Part shown: piece after piece, positions 5,070-62,610 of the stretch
Layout: each line of letters opens with the position of its first letter
Position numbering within the stretch: position 1 is the first letter of the stretch
Source of the DNA: Eledone cirrhosa
Taxonomy: Eukaryota
Assembly (NCBI GenBank): GCA_964016885.1
Contig: OZ024766.1
Coordinates: 14,694,001-14,758,000, forward strand
Length of the DNA stretch: 64,000 nt
Direction of reading: 5' to 3'
Made by a program: the position numbers and the translations under genes
Notes under the pieces: model-generated
What the model was told of the DNA's origin: nothing
Seen by the model: only the letters and a program-made list of their open reading frames with translations
The model's database searches: none

Positions 5070-5368
5070 TTGATTACATTGGCCATTGCTGGCATTCTTC
5101 TCATCAATAACAAATTAACCATCAAACAACACTTGAAAGTGGTTTATAAAATTTATAAATTTTAAATCTCAATTTAATTCCAAAGACAGGAAACTCGAAC
5201 ATTTTTCTCTGAGAGTTCCATTCCACCCTGAAGAAGGGATTTTAAAACCCAAAATATTAGGACAAAAAACAACAGCAACAACAAAACAAAGATAACCAGG
5301 TAACTTACTTTTTCATTACCTTCATCTGACAGTCTATTTTACATTGTTTAACCTTATATCACTTGCCC

Positions 5369-7222: not shown

Positions 7223-7325
7223 CAGGTATTTGGTCTTGCAGCAATGTCTCTGCAGCAGGATTTGAAGCTTGTGATACTGAGTTGGATATGAGGACAGCTT
7301 GAGGTGAAATGCCTTGAAGCACACC
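7223..7325 (-). CDS. TERT: TERT internal exon (103 nt), C-terminal extension: (W)VCFKAFHLKLSSYPTQYHKLQILLQRHCCKTKYL
   Basis: Minus strand shows a polypyrimidine tract ctctccttccattctttcccatatctag|G and a donor CTG|gtaagt. Phase is compatible with exon 27408-27463. The peptide resembles human TERT [22 protein letters not shown] (recalled sequence). Confidence 0.85.
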
Positions 7326-27407: not shown

Positions 27408-27463
27408 CATTCATTCTCTTCGAAATTCAGTGGATATGAATCACTGTCGTTGGTTCCTTTCAT
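27408..27463 (-). CDS. TERT: TERT internal exon (56 nt): MKGTNDSDSYPLNFEENE(W)
   Basis: Acceptor gttattgttttacag|ATG and donor GAATG|gtatgt. Only one frame is open. YPLNFEENEW|VCFKAF parallels human [16 protein letters not shown]. Confidence 0.8.
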
Positions 27464-29023: not shown

Positions 29024-29148
29024 ATATTTCTATATTTGCCACAAGGGCGCACAAGAAAAGGGGTCAATACAAAGACACATGCCGGGGATTTTACGTAGAG
29101 TCGTGTAAAAATATTGAAACAAACAAATTTAACAATCGAAATCCCCAG

Positions 29149-30363
29149 GGATTGCATTACATGTGGGGCTGGAGGGACAGTGGGAGTGCATTACATGTGG
29201 GGCTGGAGGGACAGTGGGAGTGGATTACATGTGGGGCTGGAGGGACAGTGGGAGTGCATTACATGTGGGGCTGGAGGGACAGTGGGAGTGCATTACATGT
29301 GGGGCTGGAGGGACAGTGGGAGTGCATTACATGTGGGGCTGGAGGGACAGTGGGAGTGCATTACATGTGGGGCTGGAGGGACAGTGGGATTGCATTACAT
29401 GTGGGGCTGGAGGGACAGTGGGAGTGCATTACATGTGGGGCTGGAGGGACAGTGGGAGTGGATTACATGTGGGGATGGAGGGACAGTGGGAGTGCATTAC
29501 ATGTGGGGCTGGAGGGACAGTGGGAGTGGATTACATGTGGGGCTGGAGGGACAGTGGGAGTGCATTACATGTGGGGCTGGAGGGACAGTGGGAGTGCATT
29601 ACATGTGGGGCTGGAGGGACAGTGGGAGTGGATTACATGTGGGGCTGGAGGGACAGTGGGAGTGCATTACATGTGGGGCTGGAGGGACAGTGGGAGTGGA
29701 TTACATGTGGGGCTGGAGGGACAGTGGGAGTGGATTACATGTGGGGCTGGAGGGACAGTGGGAGTGCATTACATGTGGGGCTGGAGGGACAGTGGGAGTG
29801 GATTACATGTGGGGCTGGAGGGACAGTGGGAGTGCATTACATGTGGGGCTGGAGGGACAGTGGGAGTGCATTACATGTGGGGCTGGAGGGACAGTGGGAG
29901 TGCATTACATGTGGGGCTGGAGGGACAGTGGGAGTGCATTACATGTGGGGCTGGAGGGACAGTGGGATTGCATTACATGTGGGGCTGGAGGGACAGTGGG
30001 AGTGCATTACATGTGGGGCTGGAGGGACAGTGGGAGTGGATTACATGTGGGGATGGAGGGACAGTGGGAGTGCATTACATGTGGGGCTGGAGGGACAGTG
30101 GGAGTGGATTACATGTGGGGCTGGAGGGACAGTGGGAGTGCATTACATGTGGGGCTGGAGGGACAGTGGGAGTGCATTACATGTGGGGCTGGAGGGACAG
30201 TGGGAGTGGATTACATGTGGGGCTGGAGGGACAGTGGGAGTGCATTACATGTGGGGATGGAGGGACAGTGGGATTGCATTACATGTGGGGATGGAGGGAC
30301 AGTGGGAGTGCATTACATGTGGGGCTGGAGGGACAGTGGGAGTGGATTACATGTGGGGCTGGA
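29149..30363 (+). repeat. 34-bp G-rich minisatellite (cattacatgtggggctggagggacagtgggagtg), about 36 copies
   Basis: Period 34 (29161, 29195). No stop codon in any + frame, which explains the spurious 34-aa-repeat ORFs. Confidence 0.97.
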
Positions 30364-30429
30364 GAGAGTGGTATATGTAGCACACCACCACTACAGATAC
30401 CACCACCACCTTCACAAACAAAAAACTCC

Positions 30430-30700
30430 CAGGCCTCCCCATCCCACCCTCACATATCCCCCAGTTACCCACCTTCCCCCCTCCCATGTCCTCCAGTTAC
30501 CCACCTACCCATGTCCCCCACCTCCCTCCCTCTCACGTCCCCCAGTTACCCCTCTACGCCCCTCCCATGTGCCCCAGTTAGCCACCATCCTCTCTCCCAT
30601 GTCCCCCAGTTACCCCGTCCCATGTCTCCCGTTACCCACTTACTCCCCCCCCATATCCCCCAGTTACCCACCTCCCTCCCTCCCATGTCCCCCACCTACC
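30430..30700. repeat. Degenerate C-rich repeat (cccatgtcccccagttaccc-like)
   Basis: About 7 recurrences of ccagttaccc / cccatgtccc. Confidence 0.7.
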
Positions 30701-30709
30701 TCTACTCAC

Positions 30710-30768
30710 CTTCTTCATGTGGAAACGTGTTTGCTGGATGAAGTAGCTGGCAATATGTCGGATACCAT
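30710..30768 (-). CDS. TERT: TERT internal exon (59 nt): (N)GIRHIASYFIQQTRFHMKK
   Basis: Acceptor gtttctattttcag|AT and donor AAG|gtgagt. Phase 1 start and phase 0 end fit both neighbours. Parallels human RVISDTASLCYSILKAK. Confidence 0.85.
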
Positions 30769-30845
30769 CTGAAAATAGAAACATTATATATGTAGGGCCC
30801 CCGTTTTGACATACTAGCAGTGGTACCCGGCGTTGCACGGGATAC

Positions 30846-32466
30846 TGCACTCCCACTGTCCCTCCAACCCCACATGTAATCCACTCCCACTGTCCCTCCA
30901 GCCCCACATGTAATCCACTCCCACTGTCCCTCCAGCCCCACATGTAATGCACTCCCACTGTCCCTCCAGCCCCACATGTAATGCAATCCCACTGTCCCTC
31001 CAGCCCCACATGTAATCCACTCCCACTGTCCCTCCAGCCCCACATGTAATGCAATCCCACTGTCCCTCCAGCCCCACATGTAATGCACTCCCACTGTCCC
31101 TCCAGCCCCACATGTAATGCAATCCCACTGTCCCTCCAGCCCCACATGTAATGCACTCTCACTGTCCCTCCAGCCCCACATGTAATGCAATCCCACTGTC
31201 CCTCCAGCCCCACATGTAATGCAATCCCACTGTCCCTCCAGCCCCACATGTAATGCACTGCCACTGTCCCTCCAGCCCCACATGTAATGCAATCCCACTG
31301 TGCCTCCAGCCCCACATGTAATCCACTCCCACTGTCCCTCCAGCCCCACATGTAATGCACTCCCACTGTCCCTCCAGCCCCACATGTAATGCACTCCCAC
31401 TGTCCCTCCAGCCCCACATGTAATGCAATCCCACTGTCCCTCCAGCCCCACATGTAATGTACTCCCACTGTCCCTCCAGCCCCACATGTAATGTAATCCA
31501 CTCCCACTGTCCCTCCAACCCCACATGTAATGCACTCCCACTGTCCCTCCAGCCCCACATGTAATGTACTCCCACTGTCCCTGCAGCCCCACATGTAATC
31601 CACTCCCACTGTCCCTCCAGCCCCACATGTAATGCACTCCCACTGTCCCTCCAGCCCCACATGTAATGTACTCCCACTGTCCCTCCAGCCCCACATGTAA
31701 TGCAATCCACTCCCACTGTCCCTCCAGCCCCACATGTAATGCACTCCCACAGTCTCTCCATCCCCACATGTAATCCACTCCCACTGTCCCTCCATCCCCA
31801 CATGTAATGCACTCCCACTGTCCCTCCAGCCCCACATGTAATGCAATCCCACTGTCCCTCCAGCCCCACATGTAATGCAATCCCACTGTCCCTCCAGCCC
31901 CACATGTAATCCACTCCCACTGTCTCTCCAGCCCCACATGTAATGCAATCCCACTGTCCCTCCATCCCCACATGTAATCCACTCCCACTGTCCCTCCAGC
32001 CCCACATGTAATCCACTCCCACTGTCCCTCCAGCCCCACATGTAATCCACTCCCACTGTCCCCCCAGCCCCACATGTAATGCAATCCCACTGTCCCTCCA
32101 TCCCCACATGTAATCCACTCCCACTGTCCCTCCAGCCCCACATGTAATGCAATCCCACTGTCCCTCCAGCCCCACATGTAATGTACTCCCACTGTCCCTC
32201 CAGCCCCACATGTAATGCAATCCCACTGTCCCTCCAGCCCCACATGTAATGTACTCCCACTGTCCCTCCAGCCCCACATGTAATCCACTCCCACTGTCCC
32301 TCCAGCCCCACATGTAATCCACTCCCACTGTCCCTCCAGCCCCACATGTAATCCACTCCCACTGTCCCTCCAGCCCCACATGTAATCCACTCCCACTGTC
32401 CCTCCAGCCCCACATGTAATCCACTCCCACTGTCCCTCCAGCCCCACATGTAATCCACTCCCACAT
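30846..32466 (-). repeat. Inverted copy of the 34-bp G-rich minisatellite, about 47 copies
   Basis: cactcccactgtccctccagccccacatgtaatg is the exact reverse complement of the 29149-30363 unit. Confidence 0.97.
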
Positions 32467-32699
32467 GGAACGCGGGCCACCAACAGACCTAATTGTGGAA
32501 AAAATGCATGCCTGGACAATATGTAAAGAAAATAAACCGAATAGTCTGATGGCTGGATAATCTAAGATTTTCCCTCTATGAAGCAGGAAAAATGCAGGTT
32601 TTCACCTAATGCGGGCCCTAGGGGATCAAGGAAATGAAATTTTCTTATGTGCATAATATGCCTTGAAATTTCGGGATATCTGATAGACGTAACGCCTCA

Positions 32700-34705
32700 A
32701 AAAAGCCCTAAGAAGCTGAAAAAAATGAAGTTTTTCACCATAATGCGGGCCCTAGGCCATAAGAAAGTTGGATTTTCTTTGCTCCCGGTATGAAGAAGAG
32801 ACTGACTAATACATAGTTACAATTTCAAGGAAATCAGTCTGACGTAACGCTTCAAAAAAAGCCCTAAAATGCTGAAAAAATGAAGTTTTTCACCTAAAGC
32901 GAGCCCTAGGCCATAAGAAAGTTGGATTTTCTTTGCTCCCGGTATGAAGAAGAGGCTGACTAATACATAGTTACAATTTCAAGGAAATCAGTCTGACGTA
33001 ACGCTTCAAAAAAAGCCCTAAAATGCTGAAAAAATGAAGTTTTTCACCTAAAGCGAGCCCTAGGCCATAAGAAAGTTGGATTTTCTTTGCTCCCGGTATG
33101 AAGAAGAGGCTGACTAATACATAGTTACAATTTCAAGGAAATCAGTCTGACGTAACGCTTCAAAAAAAGCCCTAAAATGCTGAAAAAATGAAGTTTTTCA
33201 CCTAAAGCGAGCCCTAGGCCATAAGAAAGTTGGATTTTCTTTGCTCCCGGTATGAAGAAGAGACTGACTAATACATAGTTACAATTTCAAGGAAATCAGT
33301 CTGACGTAACGCTTCAAAAAAAGCCCTAAAATGCTGAAAAAATGAAGTTTTTCACCTAAAGCGAGCCCTAGGCCATAAGAAAGTTGGATTTTCTTTGCTC
33401 CCGGTATGAAGAAGAGGCTGACTAATACATAGTTACAATTTCAAGGAAATCAGTCTGACGTAACGCTTCAAAAAAAGCCCTAAAATGCTGAAAAAATGAA
33501 GTTTTTCACCTAAAACGAGCCCTAGGCCATAAGAAAGTTGGATTTTCTTTGCTCCCGGTATGAAGAAGAGACTGACTAATACATAGTTACAATTTCAAGG
33601 AAATCAGTCTGACGTAACGCTTCAAAAAAAGCCCTAAAATGCTGAAAAAATGAAGTTTTTCACCTAAAGCGAGCCCTAGGCCATAAGAAAGTTGGATTTT
33701 CTTTGCTCCCGGTATGAAGAAGAGGCTGACTAATACATAGTTACAATTTCAAGGAAATCAGTCTGACGTAACGCTTCAAAAAAAGCCCTAAAATGCTGAA
33801 AAAATGAAGTTTTTCACCTAAAGCGAGCCCTAGGCCATAAGAAAGTTGGATTTTCTTTGCTCCCGGTATGAAGAAGAGACTGACTAATACATAGTTACAA
33901 TTTCAAGGAAATCAGTCTGACGTAACGCTTCAAAAAAAGCCCTAAAATGCTGAAAAAATGAAGTTTTTCACCTAAAGCGAGCCCTAGGCCATAAGAAAGT
34001 TGGATTTTCTTTGCTCCCGGTATGAAGAAGAGGCTGACTAATACATAGTTACAATTTCAAGGAAATCAGTCTGACGTAACGCTTCAAAAAAAGCCCTAAA
34101 ATGCTGAAAAAATGAAGTTTTTCACCTAAAGCGAGCCCTAGGCCATAAGAAAGTTGGATTTTCTTTGCTCCCGGTATGAAGAAGAGACTGACTAATACAT
34201 AGTTACAATTTCAAGGAAATCAGTCTGACGTAACGCTTCAAAAAAAGCCCTAAAATGCTGAAAAAATGAAGTTTTTCACCTAAAGCGAGCCCTAGGCCAT
34301 AAGAAAGTTGGATTTTCTTTGCTCCCGGTATGAAGAAGAGACTGACTAATACATAGTTACAATTTCAAGGAAATCAGTCTGACGTAACGCTTCAAAAAAA
34401 GCCCTAAAATGCTGAAAAAATGAAGTTTTTCACCTAAAGCGAGCCCTAGGCCATAAGAAAGTTGGATTTTCTTTGCTCCCGGTATGAAGAAGAGACTGAC
34501 TAATACATAGTTACAATTTCAAGGAAATCAGTCTGACGTAACGCTTCAAAAAAAGCCCTAAAATGCTGAAAAAATGAAGTTTTTCACCTAAAGCGAGCCC
34601 TAGGCCATAAGAAAGTTGGATTTTCTTTGCTCACGGTATGAAGAAGAGACTGACTAATACATAGTTACAATTTCAAGGAAATCGGTCTGACGTAACGCCT
34701 CAAAA
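32700..34705. repeat. 154-bp tandem repeat, about 13 copies
   Basis: cacctaaagcgagccctagg at 32891, 33045 and so on. Diverged partial units lie at both ends. Confidence 0.95.
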
Positions 34706-34980
34706 AACCCTAGAAACCTGAAAAAAAACACGCAGTTTTTCACCTAATGCAGGCCCTAGGAGATAAAAAAGTTGAATTTTTTTATGTGCATAATACTCTC
34801 TAAAACATAAGTAACACACATAAACCGAATACTCTGATGGATAATTTTATATAAGAACCTTTGTTAAGTTATGTTCCAAACAACCCTACTTCTATGACAC
34901 AAAACTGTTTGTTCTAAAAACCTTTCATTATAATTCCATGTCAGAACCTTTATTAAGTTATGCTCCAAATATCAACTTAC

Positions 34981-35110
34981 TGAAGAAGAACTTCACATTA
35001 GCTGCCGAACGTCTGTTTTGGGGCAGCCGTCTTACGTGGATGTGGAATCGGCAAGCAATGAGGTAGTAGAAGTTGAAGACATTCATGGTGACTGTCCATA
35101 GAGAATTGAT
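34981..35110 (-). CDS. TERT: TERT internal exon (130 nt): INSLWTVTMNVFNFYYLIACRFHIHVRRLPQNRRSAANVKFFF
   Basis: Acceptor tttctcttctcattggcaacag|ATC and donor TTCA|gtaagt. Collinear with human TERT [43 protein letters not shown], conserving NSLxTVxxN, AxRFHxxVxxLP and NxxFF. Confidence 0.9.
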
Positions 35111-35180
35111 CTGTTGCCAATGAGAAGAGAAATTTGTTAAGTAGACTAGCAGAAAAACCACCCTTCTAGCATGTGTTGTG

Positions 35181-40999: not shown

Positions 41000-41715
<716 letters not shown>

Positions 41716-41745
<30 letters not shown>

Positions 41746-42396
41746 GATGGGTTTCTCTCCAGTGTGTGTTCTTATATGTACAGTTAAATTACCGCTCTGT
41801 ACAAATGCTTTCCCACATATTTCACATTGATAAGGTTTCTCTCCGGTGTGTGTTCTTCTGTGAACTATCAGAACATCACTATCAGCAAAATATTTCCCAC
41901 ATATTTCACAGTGAAAAGGTTTCTCTCCGGTGTGAATACGTATATGTCTAACAAGTTTAGTTTTCTCAGCGAAAGATTTCCCACATATTTCACAGTGAAA
42001 TGGTTTTTCCCCACCGTGACTACGTAAATGCCTAATTAAAGTGGCATTCACACTGAAAGATTTCCCACATGTTTCACATTTGAAAGGTTTCTCTCCAGTG
42101 TGTGTTCTTTTGTGGTTAGTCAAGTCACCACTCCCACTAAAAGATTTCCCACATATTTCACAGTGATGGGGTTTGTCTTTAATATGTATGTGTTTGTGTG
42201 TAGATAATTCATCTTCCGATGAGAAAGTTTTCCTACAAATCTCACAGCTATATTCAGGAATATTTCTGTGTAATGATCCTTGTTCAGCACACGTTTCACT
42301 AGGTAAAGGTTTCTCACCACTGTATGCCTGTGTAACTGTATCTATATTGGTAGAAACAGGTGTGGTAGAAATGTCCAAGTGTTTAACGTCCTCCAT
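41716..42396 (-). CDS. C2H2 (Kruppel-type) zinc-finger protein, six intact fingers before a frameshift
   Basis: CxxC...HxxxH fingers with TGEKP linkers. ATG at 42396. Upstream candidate acceptor ttccacattttacag|G at 42661 suggests a 5'UTR intron. Confidence 0.8.
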
Positions 42397-56993: not shown

Positions 56994-57230
56994 GGTTTCT
57001 TTATTTGCCACTAGGGCACAAAAGGTAGGGACAGATACAAGGGGGGAAGTTTACATATAATTAACGAGTACAAAAATATAACAATGAAATAACAACAACA
57101 AACGAAGTCCTCAATAGGGAGGGGGCATTAACATGGGTCGCACACACCCCGGAAAAAATGTGTAACCCTTCTCCTCAGGAGCACAAAGAGTAGGTGCTTC
57201 CCTCGTCTCCGCTTTTTCCTCTTCTTTCAC

Positions 57231-60200
57231 CTACAGGCTGATATAGAGAGAAGACCCATTCACTCTGGCCATTCTCCCTACTTTCACCCACCTTTCATAA
57301 AACTTGCTGGGGTAGAGCACCTCTCTCTCCATTCTGATCCTTCTTTTAAAATGGTATTTGAAAAAGGGGACCAGTTGTTGGCCGGAGAGAAAGGTGTCTG
57401 ACCTCAGCCCTTTCAGCCTCGTCCACCATACAACTTCTTTAGCCATGGCTACCACACAGAGAAAAACCGCCTCTCCTTCGTTTTTGAAAGGGGGAGGCGG
57501 TTTGATCGTGACAATGGACTCGGTGGTCAACCGGATTGGTCCCACCCTCGACAGTAGTCGTTCCACATAGCCCCACAGGTCAGCAATGCCTGGGCAGTGT
57601 ACGAATGCGTGCGCAACGGTTTCGTCATCATGCACGCATCTCGGACAGATCTTATTCAAAGGATCTCTACCCAGGCTCCCATGCCTGTGGAGCTTGTCTC
57701 GAACGGGTAGAGCCCCTCGGTAGCACTGCCAAGCCAGGGACTTTTGGAAGTTGTCCATCGGTCCAGGGCCAAACGTCCTACCGAACAGGCTGGCCAGTTC
57801 ATCTTCCTCCATGCCTAGAGCTTCTCCGAGAGCATCGTCGCACCTGCTGCGTACCAACCCTCTATAGAATGTCGAGGTGGAGTCTCCACTGATTGCCGGG
57901 TCCGCTTTCCAGAGGGCCGTGAGCGCCTGGGCACATTCAATGTGCCAGTCGCCCACTTTTCTCGGTCTTTGCTTGACCCAGGATTGCAGCTCGGTGAGCG
58001 AGACGAGTCTGGGAAAGGCTCGCCTCACAAACGGGGCCCACACCGGTTGACCGGTGAGGAATACCTGGAGGTGCCGTAGCCTTAATGCGTGTTTACGCAT
58101 CTGTAGCCACGGCATCCCCAGCCCTCCTTTCGAAGGGTGTTGACAGCAGATGGATCTCCTCACCAAAGGGGTCCGCTTGTTCCAAAGAAATTGGAACAGC
58201 GCGCACTCCATTTTGGCGAGTCTTTTCACTGGGCAAGGCACGACGGTCAAGCGGTAGTAGATGACGGATGCTATATAAGTATTCGCCACCTCCGCTCGAC
58301 CTTTCAGGGATAGTTTGCACTGGGCCCACTTCTGGGTGAGTGCAAACACCCTGGCCGTTACCTCGTTCCAGTTTTTCTCCACCTGGAGGTCTGGTCCGAA
58401 CCAGACCCCAAGCAGCTTCACCGGGCCCTCCGTCCAGCGTCCGACGACGTCGTTGGAGGGCATCGGTTTGCCTCTCCATGTTCCGAGTTGCAAACCGACG
58501 GACTTGTCCCGGTTCAGCTTGGCTCCCCTAAACCTTCCATATTCCTCCAGTAAGGTGCCGATCTCACCGATTTGCGAGGTTTTCGACACCATTACTGTCA
58601 CGTCATCGGCTTAGGCCGACGCCGCTTTCTGCAATCCCGGTTCCAAAGGGATGCCCTGCAACCGCTCCAACTTCCACAGTAGTGGCTCAAGAGCCAGCAC
58701 ATACAGTAGGGAGGAGAGAGGGCATCCCTGTTGGATGGATCGCATGATTTGGAACGGCTCCGAGAGGTGGCCGTTCACCTTGACCCTTGAGCAGACGTTG
58801 CTGCTGTGCATCGCAGCAATCCAACCCCTGAAAACGGGTCCGAAGCCTGCTGCCGCGAGCACCGCATCCAGGTAACGATGGTCAACCCTATCGAAAGCTT
58901 TAGATTGATCCAAGTTGATCAGGGCCCCACCAAAGCCGGGTTCATTCCCTACCCTCTCTATGATGTACCGCATAAGGGGGAGACTGTCGTGAATGGACCT
59001 GGACGGGATTGCGCATGTCTGCGCTTCTCCCACCAGGTTTCCAACGACAAGCGCCAACCTCTTCGCTAACACCTTGGCCAAAATCTTTAACTCTGTATTT
59101 AGCAGAGTTATGGGCCTGAAGTTACTTATGTCATCCCCCCTTGTTCTCACCCTTCCTCACCAGCGTAACTACGCCCTTGGTCACAGAACTGGGAATTCTC
59201 CCGTTCTGCTGCCAGTTGCAGTAGACCGCTTCGAGGATATCGGAGAACAAGTCCGGCATCGCTACATATAGCTCGTATGGTAGACCATCGACACCCGGGG
59301 ATTTGCGTTTGCCGCATTGGCTCAGCGCCGCCCCTATCTCAGCAGCTGAAATCATCCTTTCGTAGGACTTCGCCTCCGCGTCCGAGAGGCGCGGCAGACC
59401 GTCGAGGTATGGATTGAAATCCATAGTCTCACCCGGCGCGCCGCCCCTCTCGAACAGTCGTGCAAAGTGCCGCTGAAAGGCCGCACACATCTGCCCAGGT
59501 TCAAGGATCACACGCCCATCCTGGTCCTTCAAAGACCGAATCGTGGACTTGTTCCCACTTTTTGCCTCTGTCACTCGGGCCCAGCTCACAGCTTTGGCTC
59601 CCTCATTACCCAGAGCACGTATTTTACTCCTGACAACGCAGCCTTCATGCTTCACCTCAAAGAACTGGTCTAAGGCCATTCTTGATGCCAGCACGCCGGC
59701 TACATTGCCACTCCTAATCGCCTCTTCTACTCTATCTACTAATTCCCTTTCCGTCTTGTTCCTATCCCTTGCTAATTCCTGACTAAAACCTATCGATTCT
59801 ATTCTAATTGCTCTCTTAAGAGAGCTCCACCACCTGTTGTTGACAATTGCCCCTGTCAAACTCTGCTTAACTAACGTGCTAATCCGTTTACTGTAAGCTT
59901 TGCTTCTCGGTAAGGACAAGTTCAGCTTCCAGTAACCGGGTCCCTGTCTATGGGTTCTATCAAGGTTGGCTATGCAGGTCACTAACTTGTGATCCGAATA
60001 GTCAACCATGAACATTTTTGGACAGCTAAATGTGTCCCTATCCTTCTCTCTAACTAGGACCCTATCTAGGTACGACCTAGATGTTCCGCTGCGATTGGTC
60101 CACGTCCATAGTGGTACAGTCGGAAAATCTAGTCGATATCTATCGGCCAGGTCAAATCGGCCGATTAACCTTTTGAGGCTTTTACACCCCCCTCTATTGG

Positions 60201-60661
60201 CACATGCCCCTACATAGTCCCAACGTGCATCCAGGATACCATTCCAGTCCCCCACTAAAAGCAAGGAGCGGGACGTTCCAAGAAAAGTTTCCAGACGTTG
60301 GAAGTATTCCGGCCGTGCTGCCCAAAAAGGGGCGTACACAGCTATTAGTCTAAGGGCTCCACTTTCACTACTGCCGACGTCTAAAACCACAAGTCGACCC
60401 TCCGGGTCCAGGTGCACCTTCTGTATGGCGAGGCCCAGGTGTTTTCGCAGCAGAACGACAACTCCACCCCCACCCCCCGGTTGATGCGAAGATCTCAAAG
60501 TCGTCGAAGAGGGGCGCCAGTTGGTGCTCGCTGCTGATCCTGGACTCGCAAATAGCCATTACATCCATTCTATGCGACCTGAGATCGTTTAAAAGTTTGC
60601 CTTGTTTCCAAGACAGTCCCAGGCCGCGTACATTCAGACACCCAACTCTTATATCAGCCAT
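57231..60661 (-). pseudogene. LINE ORF2 (endonuclease, reverse transcriptase, zinc finger) broken by two frameshifts and a stop
   Basis: MADIRVGCLNVRGL, VYAP, GDWN, SYLDRVL, SDH, KSPGVDGLP, NFRPITLLN, DQSKAFDRV, QGCPLS, A*ADD (stop at 58611-58613) and CPRC..ETVAHAFVHC. Frameshifts near 60480 and 59145. Confidence 0.92.
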
Positions 60662-60682
60662 GTTGGTTAAAAGAGGAAGGAC

Positions 60683-62400
60683 CTACCTGTTCGGCTCCTG
60701 AGGAGCAGGTTGCACAATATCCATGGGCGTATTGGAGGGGTTGTTTGGTGGGGTGTTGTTCTGTGGTGGAGTGGGGGTGTTTGGTGAGGTGTGGGTGGGG
60801 AAACGTTTCAAGAGGACGCGGTTATAGGGTCGAGTACATGTTTTCCCCACGTCCTCAGGAAAGTTCTCTCTTAGTTTTGCATAGGTGTCCATTGGGAGTC
60901 TTATCATTTTTAAATGCGGTTTGTTGGCCGCGCTTGCAAAGAATTGCCCTTCAGTTTCCACCGAAGGGTCTTTGTGTATTGTTTTTACGAGTTCTCTGTT
61001 ATTTGTGTTAATGTATGTATACTGTTTTATTTGTGTTGTGTTTGTTTGTTGTTCTTGTGTGTGCTTACGTTTTGTTGTATGTGTTATCTTTTGGGGTGGG
61101 GCGGATTTTGTTTGTTCTGTTTGTTTTGTTTTTGTTGGTGGTTGTGTGTTTGTTTCGTTTATGTTCGAGTGGTGCTTTCTTTTTTTCCTTTTTACAGGTT
61201 GGAAGGGTTCCCCCTCTTCGTCACTAGGTGCCGTTTCAGCTGGGTCCTCGTCCGTGCTGTCGGGTAGTGGTGTATTTTGGGGTTTTGTTGTATTTGTGTG
61301 TGTTTTGGGAGTTGTTTTGGGTGGGGCCGTGTCTTGTGTTATTTTTCCGTGTTGTTTTTGTTGTTGTTGTGGTGGTGGTGGTGGAGGTGGTGGTGTGTGG
61401 GGTGTAGGCAAAAGAGCCTTTTTTTTGTCAATTGAGGACAAGAAGCCCTTAGATGACCCCTGCTTGAACAGTAGTAACATATGGGCCTCCTACCCTCGGC
61501 TGAAATATATATAAGTGTTTCTCCATCGAGGGACACCCTCTGTGGTATTCTAGCTATTCGTTCTGGTCTCATTTGGACCAGAACCTCCACGCTCAAACCG
61601 CCGAAAACGTCTGTGGTGACTTCTCCTACTGAAAGGATTCCCTCCTCGTCTTCTAAAAATCCTGTTAGTACCCAGGAAATGCATGCATTTGGCCGGATTC
61701 CGGAGACCCTTATCTTCTGCGTTCTTTTCCCTAAATATGTGGGGAAAAATGTATGTAGCTTGGAAACAATTGGCGCCATAGAGTATTTCCTGGCCGTCAA
61801 TTGATCCTTCATTAGGACCGTTATATTCCCATAGAGTGGCCCTTTTTGTATGAACGATATATCACTCCACACATTTTTTAGGACCAGCTCAATCTCTTTT
61901 TGGGATAATTGAGTTGGTTTCCTTGTTATGTTAGAAATTGTTCTGAAAGATATCGTTCTTAGCGTCGTGTCTCTTTTGATTTCTTGTGGGGAGGTGATTG
62001 TGAAGTCTCCTCCTTCTTTGAAAGTTACATACTGTTTCGCTTCCTTCATCTTTTCTCTCAGAGTTGTAATGTCCAGTTGCTTGCAGGTTTGTGTTTTCCG
62101 GACTGCCTGTGCAAAGGAGGCACCAGTAGTGGGTTCACTTTGTTTGGTGTTATCGTTATTTTTTCCTTGGTTGGTGTTGTGACTATTGCTGTTATTGTCG
62201 TTGTTGTTTTTGTCTCCGTTTATGTGACTTTCTGGGTTTTCACCCATTTTTACAAATTTTTCTTTTAATTCCGTGTTCCATGTTTCTTTTGCAGAAGTGA
62301 GGAGGGAAGACTTAGAGCCTTGTGATTCTAGCTTCTCTGTATCACCTTTCTTAGGGGGCGTGGCTTTCACGTTAGGATGAGATGTGAAAATTCCGTCCAT
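60683..62400 (-). pseudogene. LINE ORF1 (Gag-like, zinc knuckle CYYCSSRGHLRASC) with a frameshift at a homopolymer near 61420
   Basis: ORFs 61339-62493 and 60683-61480 join at the poly-T run. Likely start is MDGIF at 62400. The C-terminus is basic and low-complexity. Confidence 0.8.
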
Positions 62401-62610
62401 TTCTATTAGTTTGCCGTAATAAATTTTTAACTGGAAAATTCGCCCCAAAAAGAGGCGAAAATAAATAAACTCAAAGTTTGACGACCAAGGCAAGGTGTTA
62501 ACGTATATTACAGTATAAAAAAATTAATCAAAACTCACTTTTGAGTAAGTAAATCCGACTCGGTAGCCGAGCTTGTTCAGACACGTCAACACACGTCTCT
62601 TGTATACGAG

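What the first reader, a model, noticed from the sequence alone, without database searches (positions are those of the whole stretch)
29149..32466. 59-nt TERT exon, frameshifting if skipped, held in the loop of a kilobase inverted minisatellite hairpin
Seen: the same 34-bp unit forms a + array (29149-30363) and a - array (30846-32466). The roughly 480-bp spacer between them contains exactly one exon (30710-30768). In the pre-mRNA the arms could pair over about 1.2 kb in many registers. Skipping the exon shifts the frame to ...KFFF-NERNQRQ*, removing the rest of the thumb. Knowledge: inverted intronic repeats promote exon skipping and back-splicing and are ADAR substrates; coleoids have exceptionally high A-to-I editing; human TERT minus-beta splicing is influenced by a 38-bp intron-6 VNTR. 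Inference: an independently evolved, copy-number-tunable dsRNA switch for telomerase activity.
Basis: partly seen in the sequence, partly recalled or inferred. Interest (0 to 1): 0.85.

Follow-up and report, generated by a model that had tools for sequence, protein, structure and literature searches.

The report
Inverted minisatellites flank octopus telomerase exon
In an octopod genome, two long mirror-image repeat arrays enclose one short exon from the end of the telomerase gene and are predicted to fold its transcript into a hairpin, but one array sits inside a young transposon copy and the exon is likely kept in the main mRNA, so this is probably a tolerated accident rather than a telomerase switch.

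Summary
A 34-bp unit forms a + array (29148-30364, 36 units) and a - array (30846-32465, 47 units), 96% complementary over 1.2 kb. They enclose one 59-nt TERT C-terminal exon, whose loss shifts the frame and gives an early stop.

The switch interpretation is not shown. The - arm replaces 8 nt inside a dispersed Helitron/HINE-like element (1075 candidate copies), and the + arm abuts a truncated LINE-like piece. The inversion therefore looks like a young, local, templated copy that later expanded. The unit occurs only in four ~99%-identical duplicates of this segment, all with the inversion. Arm sizes run from 19 to 113 units, which argues against an assembly artefact.

One spliced contig from a probable RNA run has a length that fits exon inclusion, not skipping. 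The skipped form would be a decay target, so hidden skipping is not excluded. No TERT catalytic-core exon was found in about 1.5 Mb around the copies or genome-wide, although telomere arrays exist, so which copy feeds telomerase is unknown. It could work like the TBXT inverted-Alu pair or human TERT VNTR6-1. Editing and skipping are untested.

The parts
29148..30364 (+). 34-bp minisatellite, 36 units, G-rich on +; the downstream, C-rich arm in the TERT pre-mRNA; likely the older arm, as its inner end fades into unique intron sequence
   Evidence: inner flank matches well only in the 4 copies
30846..32465 (-). same unit inverted, 47 units; the upstream, G-rich arm in the pre-mRNA (G4Hunter mean 1.13); replaces 8 nt inside a dispersed element
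30710..30768 (-). TERT exon B, 59 nt, not a multiple of 3; 77 nt from the upstream arm and 345 nt from the downstream arm; identical in all four copies
30442..30702 (-). degenerate G-run-rich repeat (about 32 bp) directly after the exon B donor; G4Hunter mean 1.66; candidate splicing enhancer (inferred)
30811..30844 (+). 5' head of a Helitron/HINE-like non-autonomous element
   Evidence: the head lies 8 nt before the body in 7 of 8 dispersed copies read
32466..34855 (+). body of the same element, with a 154-bp central repeat (13.6 copies at 32686-34780; about 1-4 in the paralogs); right end approximate
29025..29147 (-). 123-bp 3' fragment of a LINE-like repeat, cut off exactly where the + arm starts
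   Evidence: 1758 candidates; all 36 dispersed matches scored end at 29147; the copies go on into coding sequence that resembles the LINE at 57040-62610, read by eye
34981..35110 (-). TERT exon A (130 nt), TERT_C match; spliced at both ends in run X4
27408..27463 (-). TERT exon C (56 nt); holds the premature stop if B is skipped
7223..7325 (-). TERT exon D (103 nt); the last exon F starts at C27:14690797, outside the window

Best explanation
Two inverted arrays of one 34-bp minisatellite flank a 59-nt exon of the TERT C-terminal domain; the second array likely arose as a reversed local copy pasted into a young transposon, and the predicted RNA hairpin is likely tolerated, with the exon likely kept in most mature mRNA. 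Shown: the arms, the exon, the frameshift on skipping, the 8-nt replacement inside the element, and four duplicates with different arm lengths. Inferred origin: several units of the intronic array were copied in reverse into a break 33 nt inside a HINE-like element on the other side of the exon (2-3-nt microhomologies at the junctions, read by eye). Both arrays then expanded and contracted like the other repeats that fill 75-99% of these introns. Inferred behaviour: strong splice sites and G-runs behind the donor commit the exon before the second arm is transcribed 345 nt later, and G-quadruplexes in the first arm may compete with pairing. Some skipping, decay and ADAR editing are likely side effects, not a selected control.
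For: The - arm sits inside a dispersed element whose best other copies are 92-94% identical; none of 8 copies read carries the 34-bp unit. The exact unit occurs 128 times in the genome, and the 100 places listed all fall in the four duplicates, so the unit did not travel with the element. Both arms share the same three main unit variants (58/58/42 versus 47/45/41), as a multi-unit copy or later exchange would give. Arm lengths range from 0.6 to 3.8 kb among copies about 1% apart in unique DNA, and the arms persist in C23, which has lost exons A, C, D and F. Tandem repeats make up 75-99% of all four introns. Run X4 has one 578-nt contig that matches exon A exactly between its splice sites and runs on for 418 nt. 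With B, C and D included it would end 23-26 nt into the high-copy repeat of the 3' UTR, where a 31-mer assembly is expected to break. Without B it would have to run 82-85 nt through words shared 7-68 times in the roughly 1.5 Mb I fetched.
Against: A 1.2-kb, 96% duplex is far stronger than the 220-297-bp inverted pairs that cause exon skipping in TBXT (PMC10901737, passages), so real skipping is a priori likely. Folding pairs 315 of 341 upstream-arm bases with the downstream arm whether or not G-quadruplexes are allowed, so the G4 competition is not supported by that calculation. The skipped mRNA has a stop 136 nt before the last junction and should be degraded (50-nt rule, recalled), which would hide it from a steady-state contig. 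The inclusion argument is indirect: the contig's letters were not shown, it is one run of unrecorded type at depth 10, and contigs drop rare forms.
Confidence: 0.6

Rival explanations
1. Functional splicing switch: arm pairing loops out exon B in a regulated fraction of transcripts, sending them to decay, and arm length or ADAR editing tunes the TERT dose.
For: The geometry is ideal and the predicted duplex is -701 kcal/mol per 340 nt. The inversion is kept in 4 of 4 copies. Human TERT uses a young 38-bp VNTR for the same purpose through RNA pairing (PMC3948165, part 1 of 3 read) and through G4 (PMC11830802, passages), so youth does not rule function out. Decay would hide the product.
Against: No skip junction or editing was observed. 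The one contig fits inclusion. The origin inside a transposon needs no selection. The arms vary up to six-fold, also in broken copies.
Confidence: 0.17
2. These loci are 5'-truncated duplicates that express only the TERT C-terminal domain, perhaps from the leader exon of the zinc-finger gene just upstream, so the hairpin cannot control telomerase. This is compatible with the best explanation of the origin.
For: No RT or RNA-binding exon was found in C27:14.20-15.198 Mb (one 200-N gap, at 15.10 Mb) or in 12.87-13.20 Mb, while 19-25-aa exons B, C and F are found at 27-30 bits. All four copies share the same upstream DNA with a ZNF gene. The X4 contig stops exactly 30 nt upstream of exon A, as a fork at the previous exon's end would give (inferred).
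Against: These are the only exon-A copies in the assembly. The 142-aa frame is intact and no more diverged than O. vulgaris is from Argonauta (59% versus 47%). Pure telomere arrays fill 3 of 20 contig ends read, so telomerase is likely active. Five motif patterns and the protein searches also fail genome-wide, which points to a 5' part missing from the assembly or split into very short exons.
Confidence: 0.2
3. Assembly artefact (fold-back reads or mis-joins).
For: The region is highly repetitive and duplicated. No read was laid across the arms.
Against: Four copies on two contigs and both strands have the same junctions but different unit orders and counts. The arms are not mirror copies unit for unit, and the - arm has sharp ends inside a known dispersed element.
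Confidence: 0.03

Closest known systems
Human TERT intron-6 38-bp VNTR (block of repeats, VNTR6-1; PMC3948165, PMC11830802)
   Same: Lineage-restricted intronic VNTR of similar unit size in TERT, G-rich on the sense strand, variable in copy number, next to exon(s) whose skipping shifts the frame and invites decay.
   Different: The human VNTR is one array that pairs with distal pre-mRNA or forms G4 and affects exons 7-8 of the RT domain, with experimental proof. Here two fully inverted arrays flank a single C-terminal exon, the sequence is not shown to be related, and no effect is shown.
TBXT AluY/AluSx1 inverted pair (PMC10901737)
   Same: Exon trapped between inverted intronic repeats, one arm a recent addition; that paper shows that any inverted sequence suffices.
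   Different: The arms here are minisatellites, four to five times longer and able to pair in many registers; skipping here shifts the frame; skipping is shown for TBXT and not here.
HINE (non-autonomous Helentron) elements with central tandem repeats, such as oyster Cg_HINE (PMC7492417)
   Same: Dispersed short element in a mollusc with a central repeat of about 150 bp in variable copy number and a microsatellite in most copies.
   Different: The 34-bp array is not part of the family: it is in 0 of 8 dispersed copies read and looks like a one-off local insertion.

Membership tests
TERT C-terminal (thumb) domain | Match to TERT_C and colinearity with known TERT to the stop codon | tested here: met
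   PF21399 38.8 bits; human TERT chains in PDB, E 0.007-0.04; 82 of 139 identical to O. vulgaris TERT
Full-length catalytic TERT gene | T motif and RT motifs 1, 2, A-E upstream in the same gene | tested here: inconclusive
   None found in about 1.5 Mb fetched or genome-wide (the one pattern match has an in-frame stop). The genome-wide protein search also missed known exons B, C and F, and patterns fail if an intron splits them.
Inverted-repeat-driven exon skipping (TBXT type) | Complementary arms in both flanking introns | tested here: met
   1227 bp at 96.1%
Inverted-repeat-driven exon skipping (TBXT type) | Skipped isoform present in RNA | tested here: inconclusive
   One contig whose length fits inclusion; rare or degraded forms are invisible
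Inverted-repeat-driven exon skipping (TBXT type) | Skipping depends on the arms (deletion or compensatory change) | not testable with these tools
   Needs minigenes
VNTR splicing regulator (human VNTR6-1 type) | Variable copy number | tested here: met
   36/47, 19/65, 107-113/89-90 and 96-98/30-31 units in four paralogs; allelic variation not tested
VNTR splicing regulator (human VNTR6-1 type) | Isoform ratio tracks copy number | not testable with these tools
   Needs matched DNA and RNA from several animals
ADAR hyper-edited inverted repeat | Clustered A-to-I changes in the arms | not testable with these tools
   The read-laying tool does not take long repeats, and only contigs were on offer
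HINE / non-autonomous Helentron (host of the - arm) | Dispersed copies with central tandem repeat and microsatellite | tested here: met
   1075 candidates, 40 scored; 154-bp-type repeat and CA-type microsatellite in most of the 8 copies read
HINE / non-autonomous Helentron (host of the - arm) | Subterminal inverted repeats, 3' palindrome, no target-site duplication | not tested
   Features as listed in PMC7492417 (passages); the label 'HINE-like' rests on recalled end motifs and layout

The most novel reading that the evidence does not exclude
An octopod independently evolved the counterpart of the human TERT VNTR switch. One templated inversion into a transposon turned an intronic minisatellite into a kilobase sliding-register hairpin that sends a length-dependent, editing-sensitive share of TERT transcripts to decay, possibly offsetting the gene's recent multiplication into several copies.
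Probability: 0.15. Interest if true: 0.78.

Novelty: new member of a known kind. Interest (0 to 1): 0.4.

Why it matters
If the arms do control skipping, TERT would have gained VNTR-based splicing control twice, in primates and in a short-lived octopod, and the four natural copies with 19-113 units per arm would be a ready dose series. If they do not, the locus is still a natural test of why a 1.2-kb, 96% duplex fails to loop out an exon when 220-297 bp suffices in mammals. It also records one way in which an inverted minisatellite pair is born. The duplicated TERT 3' ends without a detectable catalytic part are a caution for annotating cephalopod telomerase.

Tried and rejected
1. Homologue searches with exon A and with P0001 among longer proteins found nothing; the HMMER library and P0002 did.
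2. No RNA holder was listed as such. I read X4 as RNA only because its contig stops at both splice sites and the adjoining intron bases are uncovered.
3. That the 32-bp repeat in the spacer is the ancestor of the 34-bp unit: 73 of 300 shuffled units scored as high; rejected.
4. A 17-nt candidate exon at about 5322-5338: not needed, as D joins F in frame; rejected.
5. That the element carries the 34-bp array as cargo: 0 of 8 dispersed copies do; rejected.
6. That the element habitually makes inverted copies of its flanks: only simple repeats and short matches, apart from one copy (L087) abutting an inverted piece of the same element; not supported.
7. Flipping of the spacer by recombination between the arms: the exon has the same orientation in 4 of 4 copies; no sign.
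8. Loss of telomerase in this lineage: 3 of 20 contig ends are pure telomere arrays; not favoured.
9. RT hits genome-wide with oyster TERT were long retroelement-type frames (stricter first look, weak matches lost). The C10 copy holds exon D only.
10. Earlier findings: none.
11. Literature: no paper on cephalopod TERT splicing in the listings; one search returned nothing; one search was seen as a listing only. No supplements were read; those of the four papers cited could add detail on copy-number thresholds.

Full report
Observation. The window is G000:C27:14694001-14758000 of a 3.0-Gb assembly. It is an octopod by its best protein matches, Octopus vulgaris and Argonauta hians TERT. Between them lies a 59-nt exon on the minus strand. 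Exons A (34981-35110), B (30710-30768), C (27408-27463), D (7223-7325) and F (from C27:14690797) give an open 142-aa frame, 82 of 139 residues identical to O. vulgaris and 59 of 133 to Argonauta. Exon A passes the Pfam TERT_C cut-off. Without B the frame ends after 50 aa. That stop lies 136 nt before the last junction, so decay is predicted (50-nt rule, recalled). Inverted pairs of at least 1 kb within 10 kb number 1 of 23 pairs in 324 kb here and 1 of 19 in a 150-kb comparison region: uncommon, not unique.

Four copies. The exact unit matches 128 times in the genome. The 100 places listed fall at four loci, each a + array followed by a - array; 28 were not listed. These loci are duplicates of one segment: 0.8-1.1% mismatch over more than 100 kb on C27, and a fourth on C23. 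Units per arm are 36/47, 19/65, about 110/90 and about 97/30 (searches count slightly differently). The junctions are the same and the unit orders differ, which argues against an artefact. Exon B is identical in all four. The 13.14-Mb copy lacks D and F; C23 lacks A, C, D and F.

Origin. The DNA right of the - arm is a dispersed repeat (1075 candidates, 40 scored, others 92-94% identical). In 7 of 8 other copies read, the element's head is followed after 8 nt by its body, and none of the 8 has the 34-bp unit. Here the 1.6-kb array replaces those 8 nt. The element's layout (central repeat of about 154 bp, microsatellite) resembles HINEs as described for oyster (PMC7492417, passages); its terminal repeats were not tested. 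The + arm begins exactly where a 123-bp LINE-like 3' fragment is cut off (1758 candidates), and its inner end fades into sequence that matches well only in the four copies. Both arms hold the same three main variants. Inference: several units were copied in reverse into the element, after it inserted and before the segment duplicated, and both arrays then expanded. Which arm came first is inferred from the junctions, not shown. A link to the 32-bp spacer repeat failed its control (73 of 300).

RNA evidence. Four runs hold exon A, none on record as RNA. In X4 one 578-nt contig (depth 10.2) matches 34981-35112 without a mismatch, and 35114-35167 is uncovered, so I read it as spliced. Its other letters were not shown. 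It has 418 nt on the downstream side. With B+C+D (218 nt) it ends at base 200-203 of exon F, 23-26 nt into a high-copy 78-bp repeat that starts at base 178. Every skipping form enumerated would end 79-141 nt inside that repeat, past 30-mers shared up to 68 times in the fetched DNA. The first shared 30-mer in my sample starts at 177, 3-6 nt later than the fit predicts; my sample is 0.05% of the genome. A 31-mer assembly is expected to break at such words (recalled), so inclusion is the likely main form in this sample. Against over-reading this: it is one run, indirect, rare paths are dropped, and decay would deplete the skipped form. On the upstream side the contig has exactly 30 nt, which suggests that the previous exon also joins something else (inferred).

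Is it catalytic TERT? No RT or RNA-binding exon appeared in C27:14.20-15.198 Mb (first gap 372 kb upstream of exon A), C27:12.87-13.20 Mb, or the C23 and C10 stretches, with octopod and bivalve queries. The same tblastn finds the 19-25-aa exons B, C and F at 27-30 bits; the profile search barely sees them. Genome-wide, three protein or family queries aimed upstream, a full oyster TERT under a stricter first look and five motif patterns gave no credible hit. These searches miss short or interrupted exons (one search missed B, C and F). Pure telomere arrays fill 3 of 20 contig ends read, and the C-terminal frame is intact. The simplest reading is a working TERT whose 5' part is unassembled or finely split, but truncated expressed duplicates remain possible.

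Mechanism. Folding the inner ten units of each arm with the spacer pairs 315 of 341 upstream bases to the downstream arm, with or without G-quadruplexes; with them, G4s form in the G-runs behind the donor. So the duplex is predicted to form eventually. Inverted pairs of 220-297 bp cause skipping in TBXT (PMC10901737, passages). Human TERT skipping depends on a young 38-bp VNTR through RNA pairing (PMC3948165, abstract to results read) and G4 (PMC11830802, passages). A real effect is therefore plausible. I commit to a tolerated by-product (0.6): near-consensus splice sites and G-run enhancers (function recalled, not tested) define exon B before the second arm, 345 nt on, is transcribed, leaving minor skipping and editing. 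A regulated switch gets 0.17, non-catalytic duplicates 0.2, and artefact 0.03.

Verdict. This is a new member of a known kind, an exon between inverted intronic repeats, notable for its size, its minisatellite arms and its gene. I found no paper on cephalopod TERT splicing; the library lacks most subscription journals, and no supplements were read. Interest 0.4; the convergent-switch reading has probability 0.15 and would deserve 0.78.

Noticed in passing
G000:C27:14.25 Mb, C27:13.14 Mb, C23:29.10 Mb and the window: The TERT 3' end with over 100 kb of upstream DNA lies in three C27 copies about 1% apart, and at least 45 kb of unique-sequence span is shared with C23. The 13.14-Mb copy lacks exons D and F; C23 keeps only exon B.
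   Followed up: yes
whole assembly: No TERT RNA-binding or RT exon was detected anywhere, although telomere arrays exist; probably an assembly gap or very short exons.
   Followed up: partly
G000:C10:54764886-54765227: Isolated 342-bp copy of TERT exon D with its flanks (98%), with no other TERT exon in 150 kb.
   Followed up: partly
window 41134-42396, minus strand: C2H2 zinc-finger gene just upstream of exon A on the same strand: 417 aa with 12 fingers in the 14.25-Mb copy, cut to 226, 226 and 310 aa in the other three. Its leader exon could be the one spliced to TERT exon A.
   Followed up: partly
window 7326-27407: The 20-kb intron between exons C and D is 99% tandem repeat (49/101-bp satellite with higher-order structure); the 14.25-Mb copy has about 9 kb there.
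   Followed up: no
both arms, across copies: Some unit variants are shared by both arms of one copy but rare in others (one variant 18 and 7 times in the 13.14-Mb copy, 0 and 2 in the window), a hint of gene conversion between the arms.
   Followed up: partly
G000:C10:54739458-54745594: 2.7-kb inverted duplication, 99.9% identical, 698-bp spacer, with Penelope-like RT frames on both arms.
   Followed up: no
window 57040-62610, minus strand: Near-complete L1/Tx1-like LINE (ORF1 with zinc knuckle, endonuclease, RT) broken by frameshifts.
   Followed up: no
G000:C1:217.86-218.01 Mb: Many interstitial telomere-repeat tracts in the middle of the largest chromosome, perhaps an old fusion site.
   Followed up: no
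G000:C27:14.495-14.60 Mb: At least 21 tandem copies of a unit of about 5 kb.
   Followed up: no
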